Source of the DNA: Candidatus Blackburnbacteria bacterium RIFCSPHIGHO2_12_FULL_44_25
GTDB taxonomy: Bacteria; Patescibacteriota; Microgenomatia; UBA8517; UBA10165
Direction: 5' to 3'
Length of the DNA stretch: 64,000 nt
Assembly (NCBI GenBank): GCA_001816455.1
Contig: MHCB01000038.1
Span: 7,965-71,964, forward strand
The notes under the pieces were generated by a model. The model saw only the letters and a program-made list of their open reading frames with translations. It did not search any database and was not told the origin of the DNA. Shown in pieces: positions 10,840 through 62,783 of the stretch. How positions within the stretch are numbered: the first letter of the stretch is position 1; each line of letters starts with the position of its first letter. The position numbers and the translations under genes were made by a program.

Positions 10840-10915
10840 TGGTGGACGGTAGAGGACTCGAACCTCTGACTTCATTCACGTCAAGAATGCGCTCTACCAA
10901 CTGAGCTAACCGTCC
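10840..10915 (-). tRNA. tRNA-Val(GAC)
   Basis: Manual cloverleaf GGACGGT-TA-GCTCAGTTGGTAGAGC-G-CATTC-TTGACGT-GAATG-AAGTC-AGAGGTTCGAGTCCTCT-ACCGTCC-A-CCA. CCA is encoded. Confidence 0.85.
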
Positions 10916-11053
10916 TGGTTGTTTGTCAAAATGTGCTTCGTTTAGGTTGACAACTGAGTTGCGCCTGTCGGCGCCCGCTGTGCGGTAACCGTCCCGGTGA
11001 GCCATATTATACCAGATGTTTTGTCTTTGAGTGTTCTTATGTGTGTGCCTCCA

Positions 11054-11095
11054 ACACTTCGGGAGTGTAATGGCTTTACACATCGGGAGATGTGT
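11054..11095. repeat. REP-A hairpin pair (ACACTTCGGGAGTGT and ACACATCGGGAGATGTGT) upstream of RAYT-1
   Basis: Two adjacent short palindromes with GGGA-type loops, 13 bp upstream of the RAYT-1 start. Confidence 0.6.
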
Positions 11096-11107
11096 TAGTA
11101 TTAGAAT

Positions 11108-11773
11108 ATGCCAACTCGTATAATTCCTTTGGGAACTGGTGAGTTTTACCACGTCTTTAATCGTGGAATTGCAAAGCAGCCTGTGTTTTTGGATAAACGA
11201 GATTACAGACAAATGATATTGGGTCTCTCATACTATCGTTTTGCGGTGCCCCCAATAAGACTATCGTTTTTTAAGACACTCCCGTTGGATCAGAAATCAT
11301 ATTTATGGAAGGAGCTCCAAACTAGAAATGAGAAGCTAGTTGAAATTGTAGCTTTTGCTTTGATGCCTAATCACTTTCACTTACTACTAAGGCAGGAAGC
11401 TGAAAATGGCATATCTACGTTTATGAGGCGGTTGGCTAATAGCTACACGCGCTTTTTTAATACCAAGGATGGCCGCAAAGGGCCAATTTTTCAAGGGGTT
11501 TTTAAGGCTGTGCATGTCTCTACAACAGAGCAACTTATGCATGTGTCGCGATACATCCATGTAAACCCGGTAGTTTCTTATGTGATAAAAGAGAGTGAGA
11601 TGTTTAGTTACCCTTGGACTTCTTTACCAGAGTTTTTGGGTGATCCAAGTATGGCAATGCCAGAACCGGTTTTGTCGTTATTTTCTTCTAAAGACGACTA
11701 TAAAGATTTCGTTTTGGATCAAGTTGACTATGGTAAGCGGTTAGAGGAGATAAAGCACCTTGTTTTTGAGTAA
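11108..11773 (+). CDS. IS200/IS605-family HUH Y1 transposase / REP-associated tyrosine transposase (RAYT-1)
   Basis: HuH motif LMPNHFHLL and the conserved …VSRYIHVNPV… region. Flanked on both sides by CACTYCGGGAGTG hairpins. Confidence 0.75.
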   Translation: MPTRIIPLGTGEFYHVFNRGIAKQPVFLDKRDYRQMILGLSYYRFAVPPIRLSFFKTLPLDQKSYLWKELQTRNEKLVEIVAFALMPNHFHLLLRQEAENGISTFMRRLANSYTRFFNTKDGRKGPIFQGVFKAVHVSTTEQLMHVSRYIHVNPVVSYVIKESEMFSYPWTSLPEFLGDPSMAMPEPVLSLFSSKDDYKDFVLDQVDYGKRLEEIKHLVFE

Positions 11774-11796
11774 GATCCGGATGTGTGAAGTTGTTA

Positions 11797-11809
11797 CACT
11801 CCGGGAGTG
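11797..11809. repeat. REP-A hairpin (CACTCCGGGAGTG) downstream of RAYT-1
   Basis: Same 13-nt palindrome family as at 11054-11068, 24 bp after the RAYT-1 stop. Confidence 0.55.
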
Positions 11810-11850
11810 AACTTGTACCTACACCTTGGGGGAGAAAGGTTGTTTTGCGT

Positions 11851-23254: not shown

Positions 23255-23941
23255 TTAGGTTGTGGGGGCGGCGGATAGGAGTGCCATTGAGTACAGGCAC
23301 TCATATCCCACTTCCAAGTAGGGATAGCAGCCCTCGACAAGGTCGTGGTCGCCTAGGAGTTTGGTGACCCTTATTTTGCAGACTCTGGTATCGACTTCGT
23401 CGACCACTCTGCATACAGCGTGGATTGTTCCACACATGACCTTCCTGTAGAGAACAACGGTTTGGCCGATGGTGGGGAGCGGGCGTAGATATGTTAAGGA
23501 AACGCTCCTGGATTGACCTGTTAGTACAGCATACTTCCCACTTCCGGCGTTTTCCAGAAAGATTATCTCGGCGCTGTCCTCGGCAAGACTGGTTATTCGT
23601 GCTCTGGCTTCTATGCCGGCGTAGGGGTTGTGGTAGGTGGCTTGGCCCCATGCGGCGAGCTGTTCGCGCTGTTTTTGTCTCGTACGACGCTTTTCTTCAA
23701 CGGCGTTGACGATGTCAGGGTGTTCGGCTCTGAGCTGGTCCCAGACGGCTTTCAGGCCTGCCAGCGTTTTTCGGTGCCAACGGCGTCTTTTCCATCCTTC
23801 AAACCGCGAGTCGACGAGCTCTTGTATGTCAGCCTCGGTTGTGTCAGGAAATTTGCCGAACCTGCCGCGGGTTACGGCGAGGAGACGTTCACGGCGACGG
23901 CTACGCACGACGGCTTCACGGTCATCGGCTGTGTATTCCAT
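23255..23941 (-). CDS. hypothetical protein (GC-rich island)
   Basis: About 228 aa, high GC, start at MEYTADDRE. Confidence 0.45.
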   Translation of the reverse strand: MEYTADDREAVVRSRRRERLLAVTRGRFGKFPDTTEADIQELVDSRFEGWKRRRWHRKTLAGLKAVWDQLRAEHPDIVNAVEEKRRTRQKQREQLAAWGQATYHNPYAGIEARARITSLAEDSAEIIFLENAGSGKYAVLTGQSRSVSLTYLRPLPTIGQTVVLYRKVMCGTIHAVCRVVDEVDTRVCKIRVTKLLGDHDLVEGCYPYLEVGYECLYSMALLSAAPTT

Positions 23942-23972
23942 TTTTCTCCTCCACATGAGAATGAGCAGCTTG

Positions 23973-23993
23973 TGACAGGGTGGAACCCTGTCA
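23973..23993. repeat. REP-B palindrome TGACAGGGTGGAACCCTGTCA
   Basis: 9-bp arms with a 3-nt loop. One of six copies in the window. Confidence 0.7.
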
Positions 23994-24061: not shown

Positions 24062-24454
24062 TCAAACTATGGGTTTGTTGGGGAAGGTGTGTGAGGGTTT
24101 TTCGAAGGTGTCGCGGTGAAAGTTCTTTTGCGAGTCTTTTTGTGTGTAGACGAGGCGTCTTTGAGGAAAAGACAGTCCTTGTAACATTCCGCCAATCATT
24201 AGTCCTTTGAAGAGTGTTGAATCAATCAAACCACCTGATACATAGATTGATATTAAAAGAAGAAGGGTGCAGTTGAACCAGTGATGGAGGTGGATTACTC
24301 TCCCTCTGGCAAATAATCTTATTGCCGGGGACAGCTGCAGTCTTTTTGTGATTTTTATTTCCGGGATCTTATAAGAGAATTTCGAGTGAGGGTGGCTTAG
24401 ATAGTAGAAAGCAGCGTAGCCCGAGATGATGGCAGGGATCAAGGTGAAGTTCAT
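24062..24454 (-). CDS. hypothetical membrane protein
   Basis: 130 aa, multiple hydrophobic segments, lower GC than its neighbours. Confidence 0.4.
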   Translation of the reverse strand: MNFTLIPAIISGYAAFYYLSHPHSKFSYKIPEIKITKRLQLSPAIRLFARGRVIHLHHWFNCTLLLLISIYVSGGLIDSTLFKGLMIGGMLQGLSFPQRRLVYTQKDSQKNFHRDTFEKPSHTFPNKPIV

Positions 24455-24546
24455 TTGAAGGGAGTCAGCACAGTTAGGTTAATTATTCAGGAGCAATGTT
24501 GGAATGTCAAATGACCTAGTGGTAGTGGGTGGTATACTTATTAAGT

Positions 24547-25059
24547 ATGGCGGTAATACTTGACGGTGAAGAAAAAATAACTGCTAGGGCGCATGCAGAT
24601 TTGGAGGGAGATACGATTTCCGGAACTGCGGATTTTGAGGAACTTCAAATTGGCACCCAGACTTTGGTTCGTATAACTGTTGAGCTTTCTGGTGATCCGG
24701 AAAAACTTGTCCCGGGACTTCATGCTGTTCATATTCATGAGAAGGCAAGTTGTGAAGGGGGTTTTAAGTGCGCTGGGGGACATTTTGACCCGGGGCCTGC
24801 GGGGAATACGGACCCGGACGCGAACCATCCTTACCATGCTGGTGATTTGCCGAATATAGAAATCGGAGAGGATGGTAAGGGAAAATTACAGTGTGTTACG
24901 ACTCGTGTAACCCTTTCTCCGGGGCCTCTTTCCATATTGGAAGGTGAGGGCACTTCTCTCATGATTCATGGCAATCCGGACCCTTATCGTGGCGGACCTA
25001 CGGGTTCGGGGATTTCTGGCGGGCCAAGGGTTGCTTGTGGGGTGGTTAAAGTGGTGTGA
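24547..25059 (+). CDS. sodC: Cu/Zn superoxide dismutase
   Basis: …HAVHIHEKASCEGGFKCAGGHFDPG…HAGDLPN…RVACGVV… with metal-ligand His residues and a disulfide Cys. No obvious signal peptide. The TGA stop lies inside the REP-B copy at 25057. Confidence 0.8.
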   Translation: MAVILDGEEKITARAHADLEGDTISGTADFEELQIGTQTLVRITVELSGDPEKLVPGLHAVHIHEKASCEGGFKCAGGHFDPGPAGNTDPDANHPYHAGDLPNIEIGEDGKGKLQCVTTRVTLSPGPLSILEGEGTSLMIHGNPDPYRGGPTGSGISGGPRVACGVVKVV

Positions 25060-25077
25060 CAGGGTTCCACCCTGTCA
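25057..25077. repeat. REP-B palindrome TGACAGGGTTCCACCCTGTCA
   Basis: Identical arms to the other copies; provides the sodC stop codon. Confidence 0.7.
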
Positions 25078-47100: not shown

Positions 47101-48769
47101 ACGAAAGTTTCTTTTAATGCCCAATCCCCCTGTTTCCGATCAGGCACCAAGACCAGGATTAGGAAAGATCGTAGCGGATATTAGAAATAATTCTCCCGTC
47201 TTTGAGGAGCAGTGGAAGACGGATAGTTTTTTAAGATCGTTGGATGACATAGAGAAAGATCCCTTTAAGATACTTGCGCCCCCAGGAAGTTCTGATAGAG
47301 AAACTGCTGTATATAGGCTAATTGGTGATGCGGTTCGGAAGGATCCCGTTGCTCAGAAGGAGGTTCAAGAGGCGGTAAATTCTTATTATTCAAGCTATGT
47401 TGATATTTTGAAGAGAGTTGAAGCTCAGACTGAGATTCCGAACACTCCCGGAGAATATATGCTGTCTGCTGCTAATTCGTTTTCTGCGCGAGTTCAGGGA
47501 GTTGGACAGTTGATTACAGGTGGATTTAGCGCTTTGAATCCGTTCAAGAAAGCCGGAGTTAGTGTTGATCTAAAGCCAGTTCCTGTTCGGTCAATTGGGG
47601 GTTCAGAGGGAATTTCTGCTGGCAGACAGGGTGTCACGGAAGGTTTGGTGCAGGTGGTAGATGTAGGTAGTTCGCAGACGGTTTTGGGAGTGGGCACGGA
47701 AAATGTACAAGCAAAGGCGTTGTTTACTGGAGTTGATACGACTCTTCCGGTATCAAGCTATACACTGTCGCAGGCTATAAGCGAGGTGCCAGAAGACGGA
47801 GGCGTTCTAAGCGAGGAAACACTTGCAAAAAGCCTTGCGTCGAGTGTTTTGGAGCCCGAAGGATATAGAATTGGTAATAACTATGTTTTGGCAACAGGAG
47901 AAGATGGGAATGTGGTTGCGAAGATTCCTTCGGGGAGATATTCATTGCAGGCAAGGCCAGTTGATACTGTTCTTTTAACAGGGATGCCTGGGGAGTTTTA
48001 CCTTGGGCCCGGTTTGGGGGCAAAGGTATTTGTTGGGGTGTATGCCGCCGACCCGCCTGTTGGCGAGGCAGGTGGAGAGAAGGTTGTCGGTCGGGCCCAG
48101 GTGATTCCAACAAACGATGGCGAACTTACCGTTCAGTTGTACGACGACACAAACGGAAACGGCCTACGCGAAGCCGGAGAAAACACAATTAAATGGGCTG
48201 GGGTTGTTTTCACTGCTGCCCAAGAAGAAACTATCGGCGAAGTCTCGCTTCTTAACGGTTGGAATTTGGTAGGATTCTCAAATACTCCCCGAACGGTTAA
48301 AACCGCTTCCGGTTTGGTGCGTGAAGTTGTAAGGCAAGGAGGAGATGTTACTGCCATTTCAAGGTTGGTTGATGATCGTTGGGAGACGTATGTTCAACGG
48401 GGAAGCGAAACGTTTGGCAACGACTTTCCGTTGGAAGCAGGCAAAGGATATTTTGTTCGTTCGAGAGTCGCCTCAACAATTCTTCTTGGAGGAGAGCCGG
48501 TTACTAATACAAGGATAAAGCTTTCGCGCGGATGGAATGTTGTTTCTACGTCCGGGGCGGCAGAACCTATCACTGTTTCTGCATTCATTGATAAGATGGT
48601 TATGGCAAGAAGGACATCTGAGCCCGATGTTGTCTCTCGTTGGGAATCAGGGTTGTGGGATTCGTTTGTCAAAAAAGCTGGAGAGGATTATGGAAACGAC
48701 TTCCCCATTGCTCCATTTCGTGGTTACATCATAAAAGCCAAAGACGATGTTGAGTTTGAGTTTCAATAG
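38108..48769 (+). CDS. giant secreted multidomain protein (3553 aa) with a J-domain, a PP2C-like phosphatase core, an HExxH motif, Cys-rich modules, a coiled coil and Ca-binding C-terminal repeats
   Basis: Single uninterrupted ORF. Good RBS (AAGGAGGG). Signal peptide MRVFLKKAGVIFLVFVNFISPLYPVVWITPVRAS. P/E/Q-rich linker. Three GCCxD…C…NGAC modules. A/E/R/Q-rich coiled coil. J-domain DYYKILGVS…KKWHPDV…LTD. PP2C motifs TTLVGGTVVNGKLLAVSYGDSYIYILRDG / GDRVIFASDGF / GDDVTIG. DHERVHG motif. DDTNGNG SdrD-B-like repeats. Confidence 0.8.
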   Translation: MRVFLKKAGVIFLVFVNFISPLYPVVWITPVRASQEQSSLLAYSDDDGDGVPDEVSEEQPPEEAPVEEPQPSEDAPQPDVPQEEAPPQEAPPQESPPQEENEPVQDQPSDSPPSPPEAAPPPQEVVSAPSIPEQPSGSGTGGYFTPGDGSSPSAPTPTFCPSVGKYEGDEYQECYGPGTSRHVRISGCSWQIVQEVVSNPACPGAGTPESTQFQDTQEQNNTEENYCSGLGRYKGSTWSVCSGNPGEATAWQASAACEAVSVGSAGEPNCAGSVGSLPQDGVGSLPLPGESTQVLNPSPSISACGIEMSFQRCVLGTTTLISGVMLSTVDLETQKCTTTEQIQSTSENSTSCGYSDVSQDKIPPGSGGCCNVDDDCVAQGFEGQECLVSNGACSGAGKSCATPQAEVAAKIKSGVDGCCSDGSQCGSGEECYVGNGACRSGLSCGAERTNSGSGGCCSDFSDCASQGLKFNGCFSSFDAGLCKSGQSCRPISCSGAQFCSGGTACYDQGQCANYQAELARQRAQAALASARSQCYSSLEPGCVAILAGGDQIVIEDAGQAQSLCNTNTVTGYSCGGATAAASSANSSGLRSTSGLAVGDRVIVDGVETTITEVDGSLVKVANNPYWFGEFYAKSVSEKPAQNQSFGQIIILPDGQQAAVKSVKANGDLVLWDGKEISSSSNTAKPIVPKEAATVNTSLSCNDFFEQEYTAPTVADGETVSVSGSKYQCSLGGWTKIGNADDGTFFPDAINPGVKQLAIQVGANVHLGQDDRRAPTFLDVLPVLPGMSKAETDYEKVLRVLNELGIPPEFDPNNPISARVWTEEKKIEFAKRVGQETDRSPLATVMRSLENTPLGFVVNLVSDVNIGELSDHISGAGAILQFAQGESRDAHFSEADAIADNKYTDEEFAVLAQAMQEKGVIANTSELPNKGDLALYDRVVKEFLAKQAFGSYGLQVVGPDQVAVLRRQLETDPAKLEELKNFANFTGIVSAEESDKLTPGFMATGRVGTEKIQSYQKGTYQSAAGQAFLEEAGEAAQGVAQDLAFVAGANVAIAIAAEAGAGRIVGWGVGRVAGTEVGQAVAKFATHSILKIPSEEVLSDVTREGLDVAKREYLEAQRARVLAFGDEAVSGSESFLQKNADEARRKLEEAYRGAFGDDADKVLESAVSKLDIMAGADVSQIVREQGEEYAQKFAGQTSVSDAVVNPSVVADNAFSPADQVVAASSRQGRVVLESIPDGAAGVVDDIPTNYPGVVAEVAEVTDSIDARGGGGFVQDAQDAVGGFFGRFRRSELDPLEAVEDRIAAEAVGDVSARTVDVSPATSRFTKMTPKSIDDAVEMTEDARRFKARLDDLARRIDGVTDNTVRRQLEEEVDQTRGTLIVIRKKADEAIEEIQSFRQDDEVVSRIKAEMEQTRVIASNVGGGNVFDTLKTRFEELPLPSFLRGGSESQLAPYKFEFTPEERLRIEAAKQDLKVKREEALARSRAQVEAIKKEQIDAEARVAAETVEAQQRRQAAQLAQDEAERARLIAESEASAQRAKAAEAEARAKARTANEEQARQASREQDVAARDEEIIEAQIIAERQVADARAKEETRQQATEFLSRQRELEERANRAKSAADEAERKLRQVDNAIAARQTEIDVTIAQAFALRDQYQIVKDLESDLLDSIPEQAHKILVSADYYKILGVSPSATTDEINRAYRSLSKKWHPDVSSQDLEAATLAFKKLTYAKDVLTDTIPIQGATGVYVRRNYYDAASHDAIRQQILAKDPSNFSDAVAYINRQQAKMSEAARAVEQANQRAQQAVRAAEPLNSRIEELQRAREQYLQSAEQHTRTVQAAEQDLQTAAREVMQGQPLTPTQVAYRELNDAGQEYTEKLAEVRTLREERKVAASGGVAGLDFADATSRLDAAEVELKQAAERVKAAQLAYQDSVQSPVERAGGAISDFFDQVTSFFGRGRSASQVADATEVVADVGRVAGPSLRFVQPTAQQVVPASPGLKVGSGVNVSSSGQDAFATGISSAAVADGVSTGGTPSQVVELAQLAANALVERLDAAASRFTDPVLAKQYLENSVTEFAQFVVRQNFELGAARGLYGPEALKQASTTLVGGTVVNGKLLAVSYGDSYIYILRDGKLIKVNEQVKEYLGYNEPNLVSVIIHDLQIGDRVIFASDGFVSFISDNARGKIVKAAGSTNDPQVFALRAQEILRDYYREKGVGDDVTIGSLFYGDLDVKPGLLDGLFDRVPAARSFYISKTDVQASTLSIHARNSAGDIVETRLSVEEVIHRGASSLGDKFTDGAKKQVLLELRGKGVPQSTLDEISRELKRIKKPEDVRSKLVKFTGIPVLGEPTAVSGGVFKSLGLTFPWSEKKFVVEKLEGDQGFAGIRVTARDANGVERKIIIDPSNVDGSYQYPANGFDYKLDELRELGVDERTIQQIDKQLERMAKKSVFDKTPVGQVGGSPFAPANDVAQQTDDVCKVLGASTDSVLGTSTTGGCQKPSLFDLLNPFNKIQPASKIDDVVTVVTSPEETKAIASRLIKTEESTVKMGDFSLSTIKGDDPTNDGLIFYLKPGQNLPKNVVITDKSGNVVDLGKRDTPLLFSDVRKIEIDGTDYSLAHDIWQNPMLFEIRGSSKDAKFDEVIGDITEIWDTAIKSPRRMDAVLAKNFTGEEISAMKKITDFYAQDPNIGGLTAPYDLDTVVELPDDKLAEYLNRTLPFRQVRESDISVFTGLISALKEGRAFTEKEADMFSALEFRHVVATRNVYRGLDEVYITEFNRQFALANMAEAVLSTRLVSKKPFKEHAKHYGDFVELMQSRGVEVPEWVTPFNSDDFRYGIKTDGTKANAAGQYFVSRLEDFDSMAQVLDHERVHGLSKVAYNRNVEFKIRNKLDVEYDRGFASDEGYTDALAYLIKSGGDVDKAIAENAKSTSSYRLASDEILRVAKEVGAASGDEMLGVELLFRGITDRANSSVNRSLVPIQRYYDEKVADSGAKFEERMARFSDKRKFLLMPNPPVSDQAPRPGLGKIVADIRNNSPVFEEQWKTDSFLRSLDDIEKDPFKILAPPGSSDRETAVYRLIGDAVRKDPVAQKEVQEAVNSYYSSYVDILKRVEAQTEIPNTPGEYMLSAANSFSARVQGVGQLITGGFSALNPFKKAGVSVDLKPVPVRSIGGSEGISAGRQGVTEGLVQVVDVGSSQTVLGVGTENVQAKALFTGVDTTLPVSSYTLSQAISEVPEDGGVLSEETLAKSLASSVLEPEGYRIGNNYVLATGEDGNVVAKIPSGRYSLQARPVDTVLLTGMPGEFYLGPGLGAKVFVGVYAADPPVGEAGGEKVVGRAQVIPTNDGELTVQLYDDTNGNGLREAGENTIKWAGVVFTAAQEETIGEVSLLNGWNLVGFSNTPRTVKTASGLVREVVRQGGDVTAISRLVDDRWETYVQRGSETFGNDFPLEAGKGYFVRSRVASTILLGGEPVTNTRIKLSRGWNVVSTSGAAEPITVSAFIDKMVMARRTSEPDVVSRWESGLWDSFVKKAGEDYGNDFPIAPFRGYIIKAKDDVEFEFQ

Positions 48770-54777: not shown

Positions 54778-54981
54778 GTGTATAACTGGAACATAAACAC
54801 TTCAAAACTTAAGAAAAACCCTGAGAAATATGCTGTTTGGAAACTTGAGCAAAGTATTAATTTTGGCCTTAACGGGAAAAAACTGAAGATTAGTGAGTTA
54901 AAAAAGTATTGGGCTAAACTAGTTGTTGACCCACAAAGAAAAAAACTTCTAGAAATGTGGCTATGGCCAAAACAATCTTAA
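54778..54981 (+). CDS. small protein upstream of AbiEii (possible truncated AbiEi-like antitoxin)
   Basis: 67-aa ORF with a GTG start, 8 nt after an extended -10 (TGGTATAAT at 54761-69). Overlaps the AbiEii start. Confidence 0.25.
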   Translation: MYNWNINTSKLKKNPEKYAVWKLEQSINFGLNGKKLKISELKKYWAKLVVDPQRKKLLEMWLWPKQS

Positions 54982-55622
54982 CCGAAGAACAACAGCTCCT
55001 TCTTAATCTGATCTCCCAACAAAAAGATATAGCGAGTAACTTCTATTTGTCTGGTGGCACAGCCTTGGCTGAGTATTACCTTCAACATAGATTATCGGAG
55101 GATTTGGATTTTTTTAGCATGGAAGAAGTTGACCCCATGGCTATACGGGTGAGTCTTAAAAAAGTACAAAAACGAGCGGAGATAACTAAGATTGATTTTC
55201 AACAAAGTTTTAATCGGAATCTATTTTTTCTTCACTATAAAGACGGGATTGTTAAGATGGAATTTACTTATTATCCGTTTACTCAAATTGAGCAACCACA
55301 AATTGTCAACAACATTAAGGTTGATAGTTTAATAGATATTGCTGCCAACAAAACATTTACGATTTACCAACAGCCAAGCAGTAGACATTTTATCGATCTT
55401 TACTTGATTATCAAGACAAAGGGGTGGAAGTTTAAGGATTTAATCAAAAAAGCACGAGCTAAGTTTGATTCCCCTATTGACCCTATTCAAATGGGCCAGC
55501 AATTGCTAAAAGTGTCTGAGGTGTTAGATTATCCGGTTATGATTATTGAATTGCTGGAGAAAGAATGGCAGGATTTTTGGATGCAAGAGGCTCGGAGTTT
55601 AAAAGAGGAAGCTCTTGAATAA
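54957..55622 (+). CDS. nucleotidyltransferase AbiEii/AbiGii-family toxin (DUF1814)
   Basis: …FYLSGGTALAEYYLQHRLSEDLDFF…, the characteristic GS…D.D NTase motif; 221 aa. Confidence 0.65.
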   Translation: MAMAKTILTEEQQLLLNLISQQKDIASNFYLSGGTALAEYYLQHRLSEDLDFFSMEEVDPMAIRVSLKKVQKRAEITKIDFQQSFNRNLFFLHYKDGIVKMEFTYYPFTQIEQPQIVNNIKVDSLIDIAANKTFTIYQQPSSRHFIDLYLIIKTKGWKFKDLIKKARAKFDSPIDPIQMGQQLLKVSEVLDYPVMIIELLEKEWQDFWMQEARSLKEEALE

Positions 55623-59857: not shown

Positions 59858-60958
59858 GTGGATTCCCGAAGAATTTCCGAACATTTGGTGTTGCATTTGG
59901 ATATGAATGCGTTTTTTGCGGCAATTGAAGAACGGGATAATCCTCAATTTGTCGGTCGGCCAATTATTGTTGGGGCAGATCCTAAAAAAGGGGTGGGGCG
60001 GGGGGTTGTTTCTACTGGAAATTATAAAGCGAGGGAATATGGGATCCACTCGGGAATGCCTATTTCTTGGGCGTATCGGGCGTGTCCCGAGGGCGTATTT
60101 TTGCCATGTGATTTTAAGAGGTATGGCAGTGTATCCCGGAACATCTTCTCTGTAATTCGTGGTTATGGCTACCCTACCGAACAGGTATCCGTGGATGAGT
60201 GTTATGTAGAGATGCCAAATTGTGCGGGGTTTGAGAATTTGGCGAGAGAGATGAAGCAGAAGATTTGGGAAGTGGAGCGCTTGACATGTTCGGTTGGAAT
60301 TGGGCCGAATAAACTGGTTTCAAAAGTTGCCTCTAATTTTAAAAAACCTGATGGGTTGACCATTGTCTTAAAGAAAGACGTCCAACGGTTTCTTGATCCA
60401 ATGTCTGTTCGGGTTTTGCCGGGAGTTGGCCCTAAAACAGCAGGAGTGTTGCTCTCGATGGGAGTAATTACTGTTAAGGATTTAAGGCAGACATATTTAT
60501 ACAAACTAAAAGAACAGTTTGGTAAACACGGAGCGCATTTGTGGGAGCTTGCAAACGGGCGTGACGATCGAAAAGTTTTTGAGTCGCATGAGGTCAAGTC
60601 TGTTGGTAGGCAAACTACTTTTTGGAAAGATACAAAGGACCCAAGGATTATCTACGATACTACTCTTGGGCTTTTGAGGGAGACTTTTGAAGAACTTACC
60701 GGTTTGGGAATCTTTGGTAAAACGTTGACAGTTGTCGTTCGGTATGCCTGGTTTGAGACACATACTTCGCAGGAAACTTCGAAGGGGCTACTGACCTTTC
60801 AAGAGGCTCGCAGGCTTGGTTTAAAACTTCTGGTTCCCTACTTTAACAATAAGTTGGTTAGGCTTGTTGGGGTTAGGGTTAGTGGGTTTGGTGGTGGTGG
60901 GGTGAGGAGCCATAGTCCAGAGGAGGGTGTGAGCGGGGCTGCGACAAGTCTGGTGTGA
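59858..60958 (+). CDS. dinB: DNA polymerase IV (Y-family)
   Basis: …LHLDMNAFFAAIEERDNP…VSVDECYVEM… Y-family palm and little-finger arrangement; 366 aa. Confidence 0.85.
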   Translation: MDSRRISEHLVLHLDMNAFFAAIEERDNPQFVGRPIIVGADPKKGVGRGVVSTGNYKAREYGIHSGMPISWAYRACPEGVFLPCDFKRYGSVSRNIFSVIRGYGYPTEQVSVDECYVEMPNCAGFENLAREMKQKIWEVERLTCSVGIGPNKLVSKVASNFKKPDGLTIVLKKDVQRFLDPMSVRVLPGVGPKTAGVLLSMGVITVKDLRQTYLYKLKEQFGKHGAHLWELANGRDDRKVFESHEVKSVGRQTTFWKDTKDPRIIYDTTLGLLRETFEELTGLGIFGKTLTVVVRYAWFETHTSQETSKGLLTFQEARRLGLKLLVPYFNNKLVRLVGVRVSGFGGGGVRSHSPEEGVSGAATSLV

Positions 60959-60976
60959 CTTTTGGTGTCGCAGCCC
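60936..60976 (+). terminator. hairpin GGGCTGCGACA…TGTCGCAGCCC overlapping the dinB stop
   Basis: 11-bp perfect stem with a large loop and no clear U-run. Confidence 0.3.
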
Positions 60977-61205
60977 TGGCTTTGGGCGGTTAGATCTGCA
61001 CAGGTGGGTTTAGCACATTTCCTTCCGCCTGCCGGAAGTCGTGATTTTCCCATACTCGGTGGGTGGCTTGGCCTCCGACGACGTGGTAAATTGCGGCAAC
61101 ATTGTACAGGCCATGTGTGACGCCTGCCGGCATGGCATGTTTGACAAAATAGGCCAGTTGCACGCTAGGGATTTGGGCGGCGGCGACTATTGCAGTCAGC
61201 TCTTC

Positions 61206-61436
61206 TCAGATTCCGAGTACGACTACTAGGTCGTAGTGTGCTTGTGCTCCTCGGATAGATTGGAGAAGCATTGTTGGCACCGATGGTACCTCGTGGAACT
61301 CTGGTTGGAAGGCGCCAAGCCACTCTCGGAGGGCAGTCTCTTCGGGCGGTGTCAAGCTGTTCCTTGCGTTGATGACCATTACCATGGGAATCCTGGCTCC
61401 TTTTGGTCCGGGTTCGCGATTTACTTCTTCGGTCAC
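61206..61436 (-). CDS. hypothetical protein or gene fragment in a GC-rich patch
   Basis: 76-aa ORF; the surrounding 61000-61450 is GC-rich and may be a gene remnant. Confidence 0.2.
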   Translation of the reverse strand: MTEEVNREPGPKGARIPMVMVINARNSLTPPEETALREWLGAFQPEFHEVPSVPTMLLQSIRGAQAHYDLVVVLGI

Positions 61437-61919
61437 GGTCGGTCTCCCTTTTTGCTAAATGGCGCTTCCCTTGCGGGATAGTGATGATTCTATATGACTA
61501 TGGGGTTTTATTCAACTTTTTGAGGTCTTTTATCTGGCGAGGTAAACGAAGTTTAAGGGGTAAGTCAATCGAAGATAGCGTTCTGGGCACTGCCCTTTGA
61601 ACCGAAGTTCTCAGGATAAGTAAGCTGCCTGCCCAACAACCTACTAAGCAATACCCATAGTGCTATCTTCGAAAGTCTTTTATATGTCAATTGAAGAGAT
61701 TTTGTCACCTCTACCCTACTTTGGCAAAATCTTTTATATGTGCGCCCTGCTCTGGATTGAAACCAAGCAGGCAGATCTGAAAGATTCAAAAATAGATTCC
61801 AGTAACAAAAACAAATAATTGAGGGAATCTTAATCTCTAAACTTTAGATAACCCATATTGTACTACACTATGGGGTCAAAGTCAAGTGTTATGGGTGTGT
61901 TTACTTCATGGAATTTCCT

Positions 61920-61940
61920 TGACAGGGTCTCACCCTGTCA
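61920..61940. repeat. REP-B palindrome TGACAGGGTCTCACCCTGTCA
   Basis: 12 bp upstream of the RAYT-2 start. Confidence 0.7.
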
Positions 61941-62130
61941 ATAATATGAATTATGCCCGCGCGTAACAGTGTGAAGATCTACGTAGAAGGTGGTTGTTAC
62001 CATGTTTACAATCGGGGCGTAGATAAACGTGACATTTATCTTGACGATCAGGATTATCGTGTTTTCTTGAGTTTTATTAAACAGTATCTTTCTCCCGTTG
62101 AACCGAATTTTACACACCCCTTGTCTGATG

Positions 62131-62151
62131 TGACAGGGTTTCACCCTGTCA
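62131..62151. repeat. REP-B palindrome inside the RAYT-2 ORF (encodes VTGFHPV)
   Basis: TGACAGGGTTTCACCCTGTCA, in frame. Confidence 0.7.
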
Positions 62152-62420
62152 GGCTGCGTCAGTTGAAGTCTTTTTATGGTGATGTGGAGCTTCTAGCTTA
62201 TTGTTTGATGCCGAACCATTTTCACCTTCTACTTAGGCAGGCTACTAAGGATGGGATGGCTGAGTTTTTGCGAGCCCTGGCTACGAGTTATGTCATGTAT
62301 TTTAATAAGAAATATGAGCGGCAGGGTGCTCTTTTCCAGGGGTGTATAAAGCAGCTAATGTGGGGGAGGATTCATACCTTTTGCATTTGTCGCGATACAT
62401 TCATTTGAACCCACTCGGTA

Positions 62421-62441
62421 TGACAGGGTTCCACCCTGTCA
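62421..62441. repeat. REP-B palindrome inside the RAYT-2 ORF (encodes MTGFHPV)
   Basis: TGACAGGGTTCCACCCTGTCA, in frame. Confidence 0.7.
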
Positions 62442-62632
62442 AGGCCTATCCTTACTCTAGTTATGCTTACTATTTGGGAGGGAAGAATGCTCAGTGGATT
62501 AACCCTAGTTTTGTACTAGGTTTCTTTAAGGAACGAGCTCGAATGGGGTTGCGCGACCATTTTTCTTATGAGGCGTTTGTAGAAGATTTTTCGATAGATT
62601 CTGCGGAGATGGTGGGAGAACTTGCTCTTGAG

Positions 62633-62653
62633 TGACAGGGTGAAACCCTGTCA
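62633..62653. repeat. REP-B palindrome supplying the RAYT-2 TGA stop
   Basis: TGACAGGGTGAAACCCTGTCA. Confidence 0.7.
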
Positions 62654-62680
62654 AACGTTTGCGTGATATAATTGCTTTGA

Positions 62681-62764
62681 GCCGAGGTGACGAAATCGGT
62701 ATACGTGAGGGCCTTAAGAGCCCTTGTCCTTTTGGGCGTGCGGGTTCGAGTCCCGCCCTCGGCA
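62681..62764 (+). tRNA. tRNA-Leu(TAA)
   Basis: Type II tRNA GCCGAGG-TG-…-AGGGC-CTTAAGA-GCCCT-long variable arm-GCGGGTTCGAGTCCCGC-CCTCGGC-A. No CCA. Confidence 0.8.
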
Positions 62765-62783
62765 CTCCTGTTTGCTTTCCTAA

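What the first reader, a model, noticed from the sequence alone, without database searches (positions are those of the whole stretch)
61917..62660. REP-B family (TGACAGGGT-N3-ACCCTGTCA) clustered on a frameshifted RAYT gene, with in-frame REP copies and REP-donated stop codons
Six copies of a 21-nt palindrome occur at 23973, 25057, 61920, 62131, 62421 and 62633. Four decorate RAYT-2: one 12 bp upstream, two inside the ORF in frame (both translated as TGFHPV), and one whose TGACAGGG provides the TGA stop. The sodC stop at 25057-59 is likewise donated by a REP. REP/RAYT pairs are known, but REPs inside the transposase coding sequence and serving as stop codons are unusual. RAYT-2 also carries a -1 frameshift in a G4 run near 62337.
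Basis: seen in the sequence. Interest (0 to 1): 0.6.

Follow-up and report, generated by a model that had tools for sequence, protein, structure and literature searches.

The report
Palindromes embedded inside their own transposase gene
A 21-base palindromic mini-element of an ultra-small (CPR) bacterium sits not only on both sides of the transposase-like gene thought to move it but also twice in frame inside that gene. The same two positions in relatives from dozens of other species hold each species' own version of the palindrome.

Summary
Six exact copies of TGACAGGGT-N3-ACCCTGTCA occur in the window (0.01 expected). Four decorate a Y1/HUH RAYT-like gene: one 12 nt upstream, two in frame (both read TGFHPV), and one supplying the TGA stop. 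sodC also ends on a copy. The 1-nt loss in a G run is identical in ten independent assemblies, so it is real.

The in-frame copies are not a local accident. In 33 of 82 related CPR loci, a hairpin matching that genome's own flanking REP lies at one or both of the same two slots: before the HUH strand, and just after the catalytic-Tyr helix. Within clades its centre is fixed to the nucleotide, its sequence differs between genomes, and the stems show compensatory changes.

The palindrome also sits in frame in RecG, RecJ, UvrB, ComF-like and Mur-ligase genes of other CPR contigs. One RecG loop is empty, holds a single REP (+21 nt exactly), or holds a REP pair, depending on the genome.

Best reading: a RAYT-mobilised 7-codon element that re-uses permissive in-frame slots, with its own transposase gene as a favoured host. 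In-frame REPs and REP-donated stops are already documented. Self-embedding with concerted evolution was not found in the literature searched. This is a new variant of a known kind.

The parts
61920..61940 (.). REP-B copy 1 (loop CTC), 12 nt upstream of the RAYT-2 ATG. With the preceding T it reads TTGACA.
   Evidence: DNA hairpin -9.6 kcal/mol, z -4.8
61919..61947 (+). Sigma-70-like site TTGACA-17-TAATAT, built from the upstream REP plus the next bases. It is a consensus match only.
   Evidence: 10 of 12 matches, the joint-best score in the region, tied with a minus-strand site at 61885-61857; similar geometry seen by eye in L098, L111, L140, L159
61953..62408 (+). RAYT-2 frame A (151 aa): N-terminal part with the HUH motif (H-F-H at 62217-62225). 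It runs into a stop after the frameshift.
   Evidence: (P0048 = this ORF, Candidatus Blackburnbacteria)
62131..62151 (+). REP-B copy 2 (loop TTC), in-frame slot 1, read V-T-G-F-H-P-V. It lies in a low-confidence loop before the HUH strand (aa 60-66).
62339..62342 (+). G4 run where one base is missing relative to intact homologues (-1 frameshift).
   Evidence: identical in 10 assemblies
62342..62635 (+). RAYT-2 frame B (97 aa): C-terminal part with the catalytic Tyr (TAC at 62396-62398, in YIHLNP). It ends on the TGA of REP copy 4.
62421..62441 (+). REP-B copy 3 (loop TCC), in-frame slot 2, read M-T-G-F-H-P-V, directly after the Tyr helix (aa 156-162). It takes the place of the canonical NPV-x-AGLV segment with little length change.
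62633..62653 (.). REP-B copy 4 (loop GAA, inverted relative to copies 1-3). Its first three bases are the RAYT-2 stop codon.
   Evidence: same arrangement in L086, L111, L140, L145, L157, L167
23973..23993 (.). REP-B copy (loop GGA) between two minus-strand ORFs (23255..23956 and 24062..24454).
25057..25077 (.). REP-B copy (loop TCC) whose TGA ends sodC (24529..25059). It lies between convergent genes.
11108..11773 (+). RAYT-1, an intact paralogue (37% identity) with different flanking hairpins (ACAC..GTGT type) and no internal hairpins. Used as a comparison.
62681..62765 (+). tRNA-Leu(taa), 27 nt after REP copy 4. Context only.

Best explanation
The locus is a REPtron-like unit of a CPR bacterium (Candidatus Blackburnbacteria). 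It consists of a Y1/HUH tyrosine transposase of the RAYT kind plus its cognate 21-nt perfect palindrome.

The palindrome is a 7-codon mobile mini-element. As single-stranded DNA it folds into a 9-bp hairpin. The enzyme is inferred to bind, cut and rejoin this hairpin, by analogy with RAYTs tested in vitro.

Its length is a multiple of three and two of its three frames are open. It can therefore live inside genes, read as [L/M/V]-T-G-x-x-P-V. It can also end an ORF with its TGA, or lie between genes.

Certain permissive in-frame sites act as slots that stay occupied or are re-occupied, always by the variant current in that genome. Two surface loops of the RAYT itself are such slots: one before the HUH strand, one just after the catalytic-Tyr helix. 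The enzyme's own gene is the most frequently occupied host, most simply because a transposase made next to its gene acts preferentially in cis.

In this genome the RAYT has recently lost one G and is probably inactive, while its six palindromes are still perfect.

Shown here: the anatomy, the fold, slot conservation, concerted sequence change, compensatory stem changes, the clean +21-nt insertion in RecG, and the reality of the frameshift.

Inferred: catalysis by this protein, cis preference, and the way slots are refreshed (precise excision and re-insertion, or insertion next to a resident copy followed by collapse).
For: RAYT identity:
- Pfam Y1_Tnp, E 3.5e-10.
- HUH and Tyr conserved in 27 homologues.
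- AF2 model with pLDDT 83. Its best PDB match is the E. coli RAYT-REP complex 4er8_A (E 1.4e-6), ahead of the IS608 and ISDra2 TnpA structures.

Flanking hairpins specific to each genome are seen in most of 80 related loci.

Slots in the RAYT gene:
- An identical run of at least 14 nt is shared between a locus's own flanks and its slot 1 in 14 of 82 loci, and its slot 2 in 21 of 82.
- The remaining ~509 nt of CDS shows this in only 3 of 82. Mismatched locus pairs show it in 0.1-0.3%.
- 33 of 82 loci have at least one occupied slot.
- Density is about 17-22 times that of the surrounding 932 kb.
- The hairpin centre is fixed to the nucleotide within clades. It lies 76.5 nt before HUH in 6 of 8 loci (P ~3e-14) and 16.5 nt after the NP codon in 5 of 14 (P ~7e-10).
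- Occupancy follows clades.
- On protein-anchored windows, 89.6% of cells pair and 5 of 6 pairs show compensatory changes. The covariation score is 0.40 against 0.165 for shuffles (0 of 500 reach it).
- Both slots fall in the lower-confidence loops of the model.

Mobility and in-frame habit:
- The same palindrome occurs in at least 119 metagenome contigs.
- 48 of 114 copies away from a RAYT lie inside ORFs of at least 100 aa, about 41 of them in the single frame reading TGxxPV.
- The hosts are genuine genes: RecG, RecJ, UvrB, ComF-like, Mur ligase and AMP-ligases.
- An identical REP doublet occurs in unrelated genes.
- One RecG loop is empty, or +21 nt with one REP, or holds an inverted REP pair, or holds another REP type, depending on the genome.
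- On contig ERZ1292633.85, the loop of the RecG copy (L156) matches the loop type at that contig's RAYT (L140).

In vitro cleavage and strand transfer of perfect 8-bp/3-nt-loop REPs by a RAYT is published (PMC8266576).
Against: - No biochemical or expression data exist for any CPR RAYT.
- The conserved 5' GTAG of classical REPs is absent, and no flanking target motif was found. The cut sites are therefore unknown.
- Copy number is very low for a REP family.
- At RAYT slot 2 the palindrome replaces sequence rather than adding 21 nt, which a simple insertion does not explain.
- Nucleotide-exact slot conservation with perfect stems over deep divergence fits direct selection on the hairpins as well as it fits turnover.
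- The metagenome copies were found by exact match, so decayed copies are invisible and persistence may be overestimated.
Confidence: 0.55

Rival explanations
1. The two in-frame hairpins, and the two flanking ones, are functional cis-elements of the RAYT gene kept by selection. They would be binding or cleavage sites through which the enzyme senses or limits its own expression or copy. For example, it might bind hairpins extruded from the non-template strand, or excise the catalytic core between internal copies. The sites would co-evolve with the enzyme's specificity.
For: - Slot centres are fixed to the nucleotide within clades while sequences change, with compensatory stem changes.
- Occupancy is clade-wide: 7 of 8 in clade B and 11 of 15 in clade C.
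- Identity to the flanks reaches 30 nt (L016, L043).
- Internal copies stay paired even where they differ from the flanks by a compensated pair (L098, L159).
- The upstream copy coincides with a TTGACA-17-TAATAT promoter-like site.
Against: - 49 of 82 relatives, including whole clades and RAYT-1 in this window, have no internal copy.
- Occupancy is slot 1 only, slot 2 only or both, depending on clade.
- The same slot behaviour occurs in RecG, where regulation by a RAYT is implausible.
- Decayed internal copies exist (L002, L098 slot 2, L111 slot 2).
Confidence: 0.22
2. Concerted evolution is local and independent of the enzyme. Four short palindromes within 700 bp would homogenise one another by replication template switching or short-tract gene conversion. 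The internal copies would then be old, tolerated insertions with no continuing mobility.
For: - The copies are close together and share loop and flank bases.
- A tandem doubled REP lies at slot 2 of L015, which fits slippage-type events.
Against: - Slot copies in distant genes also carry the genome's own variant: RecG on the same contig as a RAYT, and RecG orthologues.
- 21-nt repeats are below the usual homology length for RecA-dependent conversion (general knowledge).
- Identical REP doublets in unrelated genes show real transposition.
Confidence: 0.1
3. TGxxPV is an ancestral, functionally required protein motif of this RAYT clade, and the DNA palindromy is incidental.
For: TG-x-x-PV appears at both positions in most of the 27 closest homologues.
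Against: - The stem pairs third codon positions with each other (5-17, 8-14, 2-20 in the palindrome), and these stay complementary.
- The two variable residues co-vary between the two sites within a protein and match the extragenic copies.
- In other clades the same slots encode unrelated peptides dictated by a different palindrome, such as QGEAL, KGVTFKG and RSSTSN.
- The same 21-mer occurs between genes and in unrelated proteins.
Confidence: 0.02
4. The frameshift is programmed. A -1 slip of tRNA-Gly on G-GGG would produce the full-length RAYT at low level as a form of regulation.
For: - A -1 slip on the G4 run gives exactly the conserved FQGVYKA.
- Both halves are otherwise intact, and the arrangement is fixed in ten assemblies.
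Against: - There is no X-XXY-YYZ slippery heptamer, and no structure within 5-9 nt downstream. The next hairpin is about 80 nt away.
- None of more than 100 homologues examined has the shift. They read CAGGG[CTA]... in one frame.
Confidence: 0.05

Closest known systems
REPtrons: RAYT / TnpA(REP) genes flanked by their cognate REPs (E. coli, Pseudomonas; group 3 systems of Stenotrophomonas and Marinomonas; PMC8266576, PMC3116915, PMC5581495)
   Same: - A Y1/HUH fold with a single catalytic Tyr; the best structural match is 4er8.
- The gene is bracketed by hairpins specific to the genome.
- The REP is a perfect palindrome with a 3-nt loop, like the S. maltophilia 8-bp/3-nt REP.
- REPs are concentrated near the gene, as in Marinomonas.
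- Distinct paralogues have distinct REPs in one genome (RAYT-1 versus RAYT-2).
   Different: - No GTAG tetranucleotide.
- Very low copy number.
- The NCBIfam REP_Tyr_transpos score of 41.6 is below the cut-off of 80.
- Extra loops host REP copies inside the coding sequence at two conserved slots.
- The ORF regularly ends on the REP's own stop codon.
Intragenic REPs and Rickettsia palindromic elements (RPE): palindromic repeats inserted in frame in protein-coding genes (PMC3733652; the RPE precedent is recalled from Ogata et al. 2000 and cited within that paper)
   Same: - Short palindromes lie in frame inside real genes and encode a fixed peptide.
- Hosts are often DNA replication or repair genes (uvrA and uvrB there; RecG, RecJ, UvrB and ComF here).
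- REP ends supply stop codons.
   Different: - Here one of the hosts is the cognate transposase gene itself, at about 20-fold excess.
- The slots are positionally conserved across clades and track each genome's REP variant.
- The unit is a minimal 21 nt (7 codons).
- The lineage is CPR/Patescibacteria, for which the literature searches found no REP/RAYT study.
IS200/IS605 TnpA with subterminal hairpin ends (IS608, ISDra2)
   Same: The same catalytic fold. Hairpins lie at both ends of the gene. The published mechanism gives precise excision and target re-use, which would explain slot turnover.
   Different: The gene plus its ends is not seen as a multi-copy element here. There is an extra C-terminal region of about 70 aa, as in RAYTs. 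The hairpins also occur singly, away from any transposase gene, and inside the CDS.
DNA uptake sequences in coding regions with reading-frame bias (Pasteurellaceae, Neisseria; PMC2346458, listed)
   Same: A short genome-specific DNA motif is tolerated inside genes, preferentially in one reading frame. This is an analogy for the roughly 41:7 frame bias.
   Different: Uptake sequences are not palindromic hairpins tied to a transposase gene, and they are far denser. There is no evidence here for a role in uptake.

Membership tests
RAYT / TnpA(REP) (REP-associated tyrosine transposase) | Y1 HUH endonuclease fold with an HUH motif and one catalytic Tyr | tested here: met
   Pfam PF01797, E 3.5e-10. 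H89-F-H91 and Y149 are invariant in alignment A2. Foldseek's best hit is 4er8_A, E 1.4e-6, TM 0.69 on the target. In this genome the two motifs are split by the frameshift.
RAYT / TnpA(REP) | Gene flanked on both sides by copies of a genome-specific palindromic repeat | tested here: met
   Copies at 61920 and 62633 have inverted loops, CTC versus GAA. The same arrangement is seen in most of 80 related loci.
RAYT / TnpA(REP) | Curated sequence-family threshold (NCBIfam NF047646, REP_Tyr_transpos, equivalog) | tested here: not met
   41.6 bits for RAYT-2 and 52.9 bits for RAYT-1, against a cut-off of 80. No PDB sequence hit with the profile. These are distant relatives, not equivalogs.
Classical REP (GTAG-tagged REP/BIME) | Conserved GTAG tetranucleotide 5' of the hairpin | tested here: not met
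   No conserved base in the 12 nt on either side of 128 distinct copies. None of the six window copies is preceded by GTAG.
Classical REP | High copy number, dispersed genome-wide, mostly extragenic | tested here: not met
   6 copies in about 72 kb, 4 of them at the RAYT. About 0.026 per kb in 932 kb of related loci. About 42% of non-RAYT copies lie inside ORFs. Whole-genome counts could not be made.
RAYT / TnpA(REP) | Cleaves and rejoins its cognate REP as single-stranded DNA | not testable with these tools
   Shown in vitro only for proteobacterial RAYTs (PMC8266576). Inferred here from the fold and the association.
IS200/IS605 insertion sequence | The whole unit (ends plus tnpA) present in several near-identical copies | tested here: inconclusive
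   No second copy of RAYT-2 in the window. RAYT-1 is only 37% identical. The rest of the genome was not available.
In-frame intragenic palindromic elements (RPE-like) | Element length a multiple of three, inserted within a conserved ORF without disrupting it, absent from orthologues | tested here: met
   RecG with an empty site reads TAT GAA ATC GGC. The occupied site reads TAT GAG G[21-nt REP]GT, exactly +7 codons. Host ORFs carry full Pfam domain sets. For the RAYT slots themselves, the indel is not a clean +21 nt.

The most novel reading that the evidence does not exclude
The internal copies are not passengers. They would form a built-in feedback device, as recognition hairpins written into the enzyme's own coding sequence that must co-evolve with its specificity. 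Through them the RAYT would throttle or even delete its own catalytic core. More generally, CPR RAYTs would actively overwrite resident REPs genome-wide, giving an enzyme-driven form of concerted evolution at fixed sites. Either case would make the co-evolution of RAYT specificity and REP sequence directly readable from single genes.
Probability: 0.25. Interest if true: 0.8.

Novelty: new variant of a known kind. Interest (0 to 1): 0.62.

Why it matters
How REP and REPIN populations are copied, kept uniform and kept matched to their single-copy RAYT is still unresolved.

Here the cognate hairpin sits at fixed, alignable positions inside the enzyme's own gene, and inside conserved genes such as recG, in many species. 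Each genome therefore provides a paired reading of enzyme sequence and substrate sequence. Each slot gives a site where turnover, excision or conversion can be dated and compared between lineages.

The finding also shows that gene-dense CPR genomes accommodate mobile palindromes by placing them in frame. This adds 7-residue insertions such as LTGSDPV to repair enzymes, and annotators may otherwise misread them as lineage-specific motifs.

It extends REP/RAYT biology to a phylum where the literature searches found no study of it.

Tried and rejected
- Chance or low-complexity origin: rejected.
- Assembly artefact at palindromes or the G run: rejected, since ten independent assemblies are identical.
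- Protein-motif explanation: rejected on third-position pairing, within-protein co-variation, and unrelated peptides at the same slots in other clades.
- Recent insertion peculiar to this genome: rejected, because the slots are conserved.
- Flanking target or guide motif (a GTAG analogue): none found.
- Consistent loop orientation rule among the four RAYT-linked copies across loci: none found by inspection. Internal loop orientation is partly forced by stop avoidance, because a GAA loop in the TGFHPV frame would read TGA.
- tRNA adjacency of RAYT units: only about 5 of 60 loci, plus both window RAYTs and L111. Too weak to build on.
- Rfam: only tRNAs in the window, and nothing in the 1 kb upstream.
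- Profile search of PDB sequences: no hit. Only the fold search worked.
- P0119 was checked as a possible REP-to-REP deletion variant. It is merely cut by a contig end.
- First k-mer control (11-mers): uninformative, because AT-rich words and related REP cores are shared between genomes. It was replaced by longest-common-substring and anchored tests.
- Genome-wide counting in the source genome was not possible.
Full report
**1. The observation**

The pattern TGACAGGGT-N3-ACCCTGTCA occurs exactly six times in the window, at 23973, 25057, 61920, 62131, 62421 and 62633. All six have perfect 9-bp stems, and no further copies appear even with three mismatches allowed. Shuffles give 0.01 on average. 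It is the only repeated perfect hairpin family in the 64 kb. As single-stranded DNA each copy folds at -8.6 to -9.6 kcal/mol, with z about -4 to -5.

Four copies decorate one gene:
- One ends 12 nt before the ATG at 61953.
- One is read in that frame as V-TGFHPV-R.
- One is read in the downstream frame as M-TGFHPV-K.
- One opens with the TGA that closes the ORF at 62633-62635.

The ORF 24529..25059 is a Cu/Zn superoxide dismutase (PF00080, E 1.8e-30). It too ends on the first three bases of a copy. The sixth copy lies between two minus-strand ORFs.

**2. The gene**

Joining 61953..62408 to 62342..62635 by a -1 shift in the G4 run at 62339-62342 gives a 227-aa protein. It matches Pfam Y1_Tnp (E 3.5e-10). 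It reads FQGVYKA across the join, as do the intact paralogue RAYT-1 at 11108..11773 (FQGVFKA, 37% identity) and all homologues examined.

The HUH motif (62217-62225) lies in the first frame and the catalytic Tyr (62396-62398) in the second.

An AlphaFold2 model built on 28 sequences has mean pLDDT 83. Its best solved match is the E. coli RAYT bound to a REP hairpin (4er8_A, E 1.4e-6), ahead of the IS608 and ISDra2 TnpA structures. The NCBIfam RAYT equivalog model is hit below its cut-off, at 41.6 versus 80 bits. This is therefore a distant RAYT-like protein.

The first ORF is an exact database protein from Candidatus Blackburnbacteria, a member of the CPR/Patescibacteria. The whole 848-nt region, frameshift and four palindromes included, is identical in ten contigs assembled independently from different samples. 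The lost G is real and fixed in that population.

No homologue shares the shift. Nothing resembles a programmed frameshift signal. The simplest reading is a recent inactivation.

**3. The in-frame copies are a family-wide feature**

In the 27 closest database homologues (54-68% identity), both positions read TG-x-x-PV. The two variable residues co-vary within each protein (SD/SD, PG/PG, FN/FN, LH/LH). Over-long N-terminal calls read straight through the upstream REP as LTGSDPV.

I fetched 80 related loci from species-level genomes. Most have hairpins specific to their genome upstream of the gene and at or after its stop. Many have the same hairpin inside the CDS, near nt 150-200 (slot 1) and near nt 440-500 (slot 2).

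Quantitatively:

| Comparison with the locus's own 260 nt of flanks | Loci with an identical run of at least 14 nt |
|---|---|
| Own slot 1 | 14 of 82 |
| Own slot 2 | 21 of 82 |
| Remaining ~509 nt of CDS | 3 of 82 (ORFs that read through the 3' REP) |
| Mismatched locus pairs | 0.1-0.3% |

Thirty-three loci have at least one occupied slot. By a strict count, the flank-type hairpin is about 17-22 times denser in RAYT coding sequence than in the 932 kb around these genes (0.44-0.56 versus 0.026 per kb).

The sequences differ widely between genomes. Examples are ACAGGGT.., CAAGGCGAGGCCTTG, AAAGGTGTCACCTTT, TCGAAGTTCAACTTCGA and CCGGAGGTTCAACCTCCGG, and the encoded peptides differ accordingly. 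The position does not change. Within one clade the hairpin centre lies exactly 76.5 nt before the HUH codons in 6 of 8 loci. In another it lies exactly 16.5 nt after the NP codon in 5 of 14. The background chance of a 5-bp stem at a given centre is 0.33% (P about 3e-14 and 7e-10).

Occupancy follows clades. Slot 1 only is found in one clade (7 of 8), slot 2 only in another (11 of 15), and either or both in the window's clade. Three clades, including that of RAYT-1, have none.

On windows anchored by protein motifs rather than by the hairpin, 89.6% of cells pair. Five of six stem pairs show changes on both sides. The covariation score is 0.40 against 0.165 for shuffles (0 of 500 reach it) and at most 0.14 for slid partners.

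In the window's palindrome, third codon positions pair with one another. The pairing is therefore maintained at the nucleic-acid level, not through the peptide. Both slots fall in the two lower-confidence loops of the model: before the HUH strand and right after the Tyr helix. Slot 2 occupies the place of the canonical NPV-x-AGLV segment with little or no length change.

**4. The palindrome behaves this way in other genes too**

The stems are identical and the loops vary (CCG/CGG, CAG/CTG, TCA/TGA and others).

Where a RAYT homologue is present, the copies sit in the same four places. In L086, L111, L140, L145, L157 and L167, as in the window, the RAYT stop is the REP's TGA. A different clade uses the TAG of its own REP.

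Of 114 copies not next to a RAYT:
- 48 lie wholly inside ORFs of at least 100 aa.
- About 41 of these are in the single frame reading [L/M/V]-T-G-x-x-P-V.
- 7 are in the frame reading DRVxPCQ.
- 11 coincide with a stop. This count is noisy: one window case rests on a spurious ORF.

The hosts are genuine, full-length RecG, RecJ, UvrB, ComF-like, Mur-ligase, AMP-ligase and dehydrogenase genes. An identical REP doublet occurs in unrelated genes, which shows transposition.

RecG served as a comparator free of the exact-match bias. Among 120 CPR RecG homologues, one loop is:
- empty in about 16;
- occupied by a single REP peptide (TG-SD/LN/PG/RD/SN-PV) in about 18;
- occupied by inverted REP pairs in 4;
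- occupied by peptides of other palindrome types in about 16.

At the DNA level, the empty site TAT GAA ATC GGC becomes TAT GAG G[21-nt REP]GT, exactly seven codons longer. Another genome holds a CTCAAGGCCCGGCCTTGAG-type REP at the same place. On one contig, the RecG copy has the loop type used at that contig's RAYT.

No conserved motif flanks the 21-mer, and in particular there is no GTAG.

**5. Interpretation**

The locus is a REPtron-like unit whose REP is a minimal, 7-codon, in-frame-compatible mobile palindrome. The data show that certain permissive sites are slots. They stay occupied or are re-occupied, and they always carry the genome's current variant.

Two loops of the RAYT are such slots, and its gene is the most frequently occupied host. 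I attribute this to preferential action in cis, together with survival only of non-disruptive insertions. That attribution is an inference.

How slots are refreshed is not shown. There are two candidate mechanisms:
- Precise excision and re-insertion at the same target, as IS200/IS605 chemistry allows.
- Insertion beside a resident copy followed by collapse. L015 has a tandem doubled REP at slot 2.

The main rival is that the RAYT-internal hairpins are selected cis-elements, for example for autoregulation. In its favour are nucleotide-exact conservation and compensated stems. Against it are whole clades without internal copies, variable slot usage, decayed copies, and identical behaviour in RecG.

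Purely local homogenisation is weakened by the matching of distant copies. A protein-motif origin is contradicted. A programmed frameshift is unsupported.

**6. Relation to what is known**

REPs that provide stop codons, and REPs inside ORFs, are on record, notably in replication and repair genes (PMC3733652). RPEs are the classic in-frame case.

RAYTs flanked by REPs, perfect 8-bp/3-nt-loop REPs cleaved in vitro, and REPs concentrated near the gene are also on record (PMC8266576).

I found no mention of REPs inside a RAYT coding sequence in the RAYT classification papers (PMC5581495 and PMC6006769). I also found no REP/RAYT work on CPR bacteria. The library is incomplete, so this is absence of evidence only.

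I therefore rate the finding as a new variant of a known kind. The components are known. New here are the self-embedding at two conserved slots, concerted evolution across many species, the clean 21-nt in-frame unit without GTAG, and the lineage.

**7. Limits**

- There is no whole-genome count for the source organism.
- Metagenome copies were found by exact match, so decayed copies are unseen.
- Taxon labels of several MAG records are unreliable.
- All mechanistic steps involving the enzyme are inferred.

Noticed in passing
window 61919-61947: The upstream REP plus adjacent bases form the top-scoring plus-strand sigma-70-like site of the region (10 of 12, tied with a minus-strand site at 61885-61857): TTGACA (a T plus the first 5 nt of the REP), a 17-nt spacer (the rest of the REP plus 1 nt), then TAATAT. 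The ATG follows 6 nt later, which would give a nearly leaderless mRNA. Similar geometry is visible in L098, L111, L140 and L159. The palindrome would offer TTGACA on both strands.
   Followed up: partly
L155, L156, L179, L210-L213 (RecG); P0121-P0240: One loop of CPR RecG, between SSPSYE(I/V) and SLHTGRLVP, is a hot spot. Depending on the genome it is empty, holds one 21-nt REP, holds an inverted REP pair with a spacer of about 38 nt (P0148, P0157, P0187, P0214), or holds other palindrome types (peptides ESQPQGPALSVS and KIEGSHTSMDGSMRSF).
   Followed up: partly
L109, L136, L191, L196: A REP doublet (TGACAGGGTCCGACCCTGTCA-gtaa-ACAGGGTCGGACCCTT, REPIN-like) is inserted in frame in unrelated genes (UvrB, AMP-binding ligases). 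It adds ..LTGSDPVKKQGRTL.. to the proteins.
   Followed up: partly
L102, L143 (RecJ); L109 (UvrB); L133, L110, L165 (ComF-like); L155, L156 (RecG): Host genes of intragenic copies are conspicuously often enzymes that handle single-stranded DNA or repair. This echoes an unexplained remark in PMC3733652 about uvrA and uvrB.
   Followed up: no
window 60959-61919: About 960 nt upstream of RAYT-2 has no ORF of 100 aa or more. Over roughly 60.8-61.6 kb its GC is 0.50-0.56, against about 0.42-0.45 in the genes to its left, and it drops to about 0.38-0.42 just before the RAYT. No Rfam match. This is odd for a gene-dense CPR genome.
   Followed up: partly
window 62681-62765 and 10840-10915; L004, L024, L032, L057, L111: Both RAYT genes of the window lie next to tRNA genes: tRNA-Leu 27 nt after the 3' REP, and tRNA-Val about 190 nt before RAYT-1. 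A few related loci do too, and in L111 the REP directly follows a tRNA 3' end. Only about 5 of 60 scanned loci show it, so the link is weak.
   Followed up: partly
window 11040-11100 and 11775-11815: RAYT-1 is intact and is flanked by a different, weaker hairpin family (ACACATCGGGAGATGTGT and CACTCCGGGAGTG). Its clade (L056, L062, L064-L067, L072, L078) has ACACC..GGTGT-type flanks and no internal copies.
   Followed up: partly
L015 around nt 447-495 of the RAYT CDS: Slot 2 holds a tandem doubled REP (AAGGTCTCACCTTCGGAAGGT-TCACCTTCGGAAGGTGAGACCTT, peptide KVSPSEGSPSEGETL). This may be a snapshot of insertion next to a resident copy.
   Followed up: no
window 38108-48769: A single ORF of 3553 aa on the plus strand. 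Not examined.
   Followed up: no
window 54957-55622 and neighbours: An AbiEii-family nucleotidyltransferase toxin gene, with an RHH-domain gene nearby in sister assemblies (gene tables of L200, L203 and L205). A DinB/IMS-family polymerase gene at 59858-60958 lies immediately upstream of the RAYT-2 region.
   Followed up: no
L001, L004, L008, L012 and other loci: Many MAG records carrying these CPR-type RAYTs are titled 'uncultured Gammaproteobacteria' or archaea. The gene content and the homologues point to Patescibacteria, so the record titles look unreliable.
   Followed up: no
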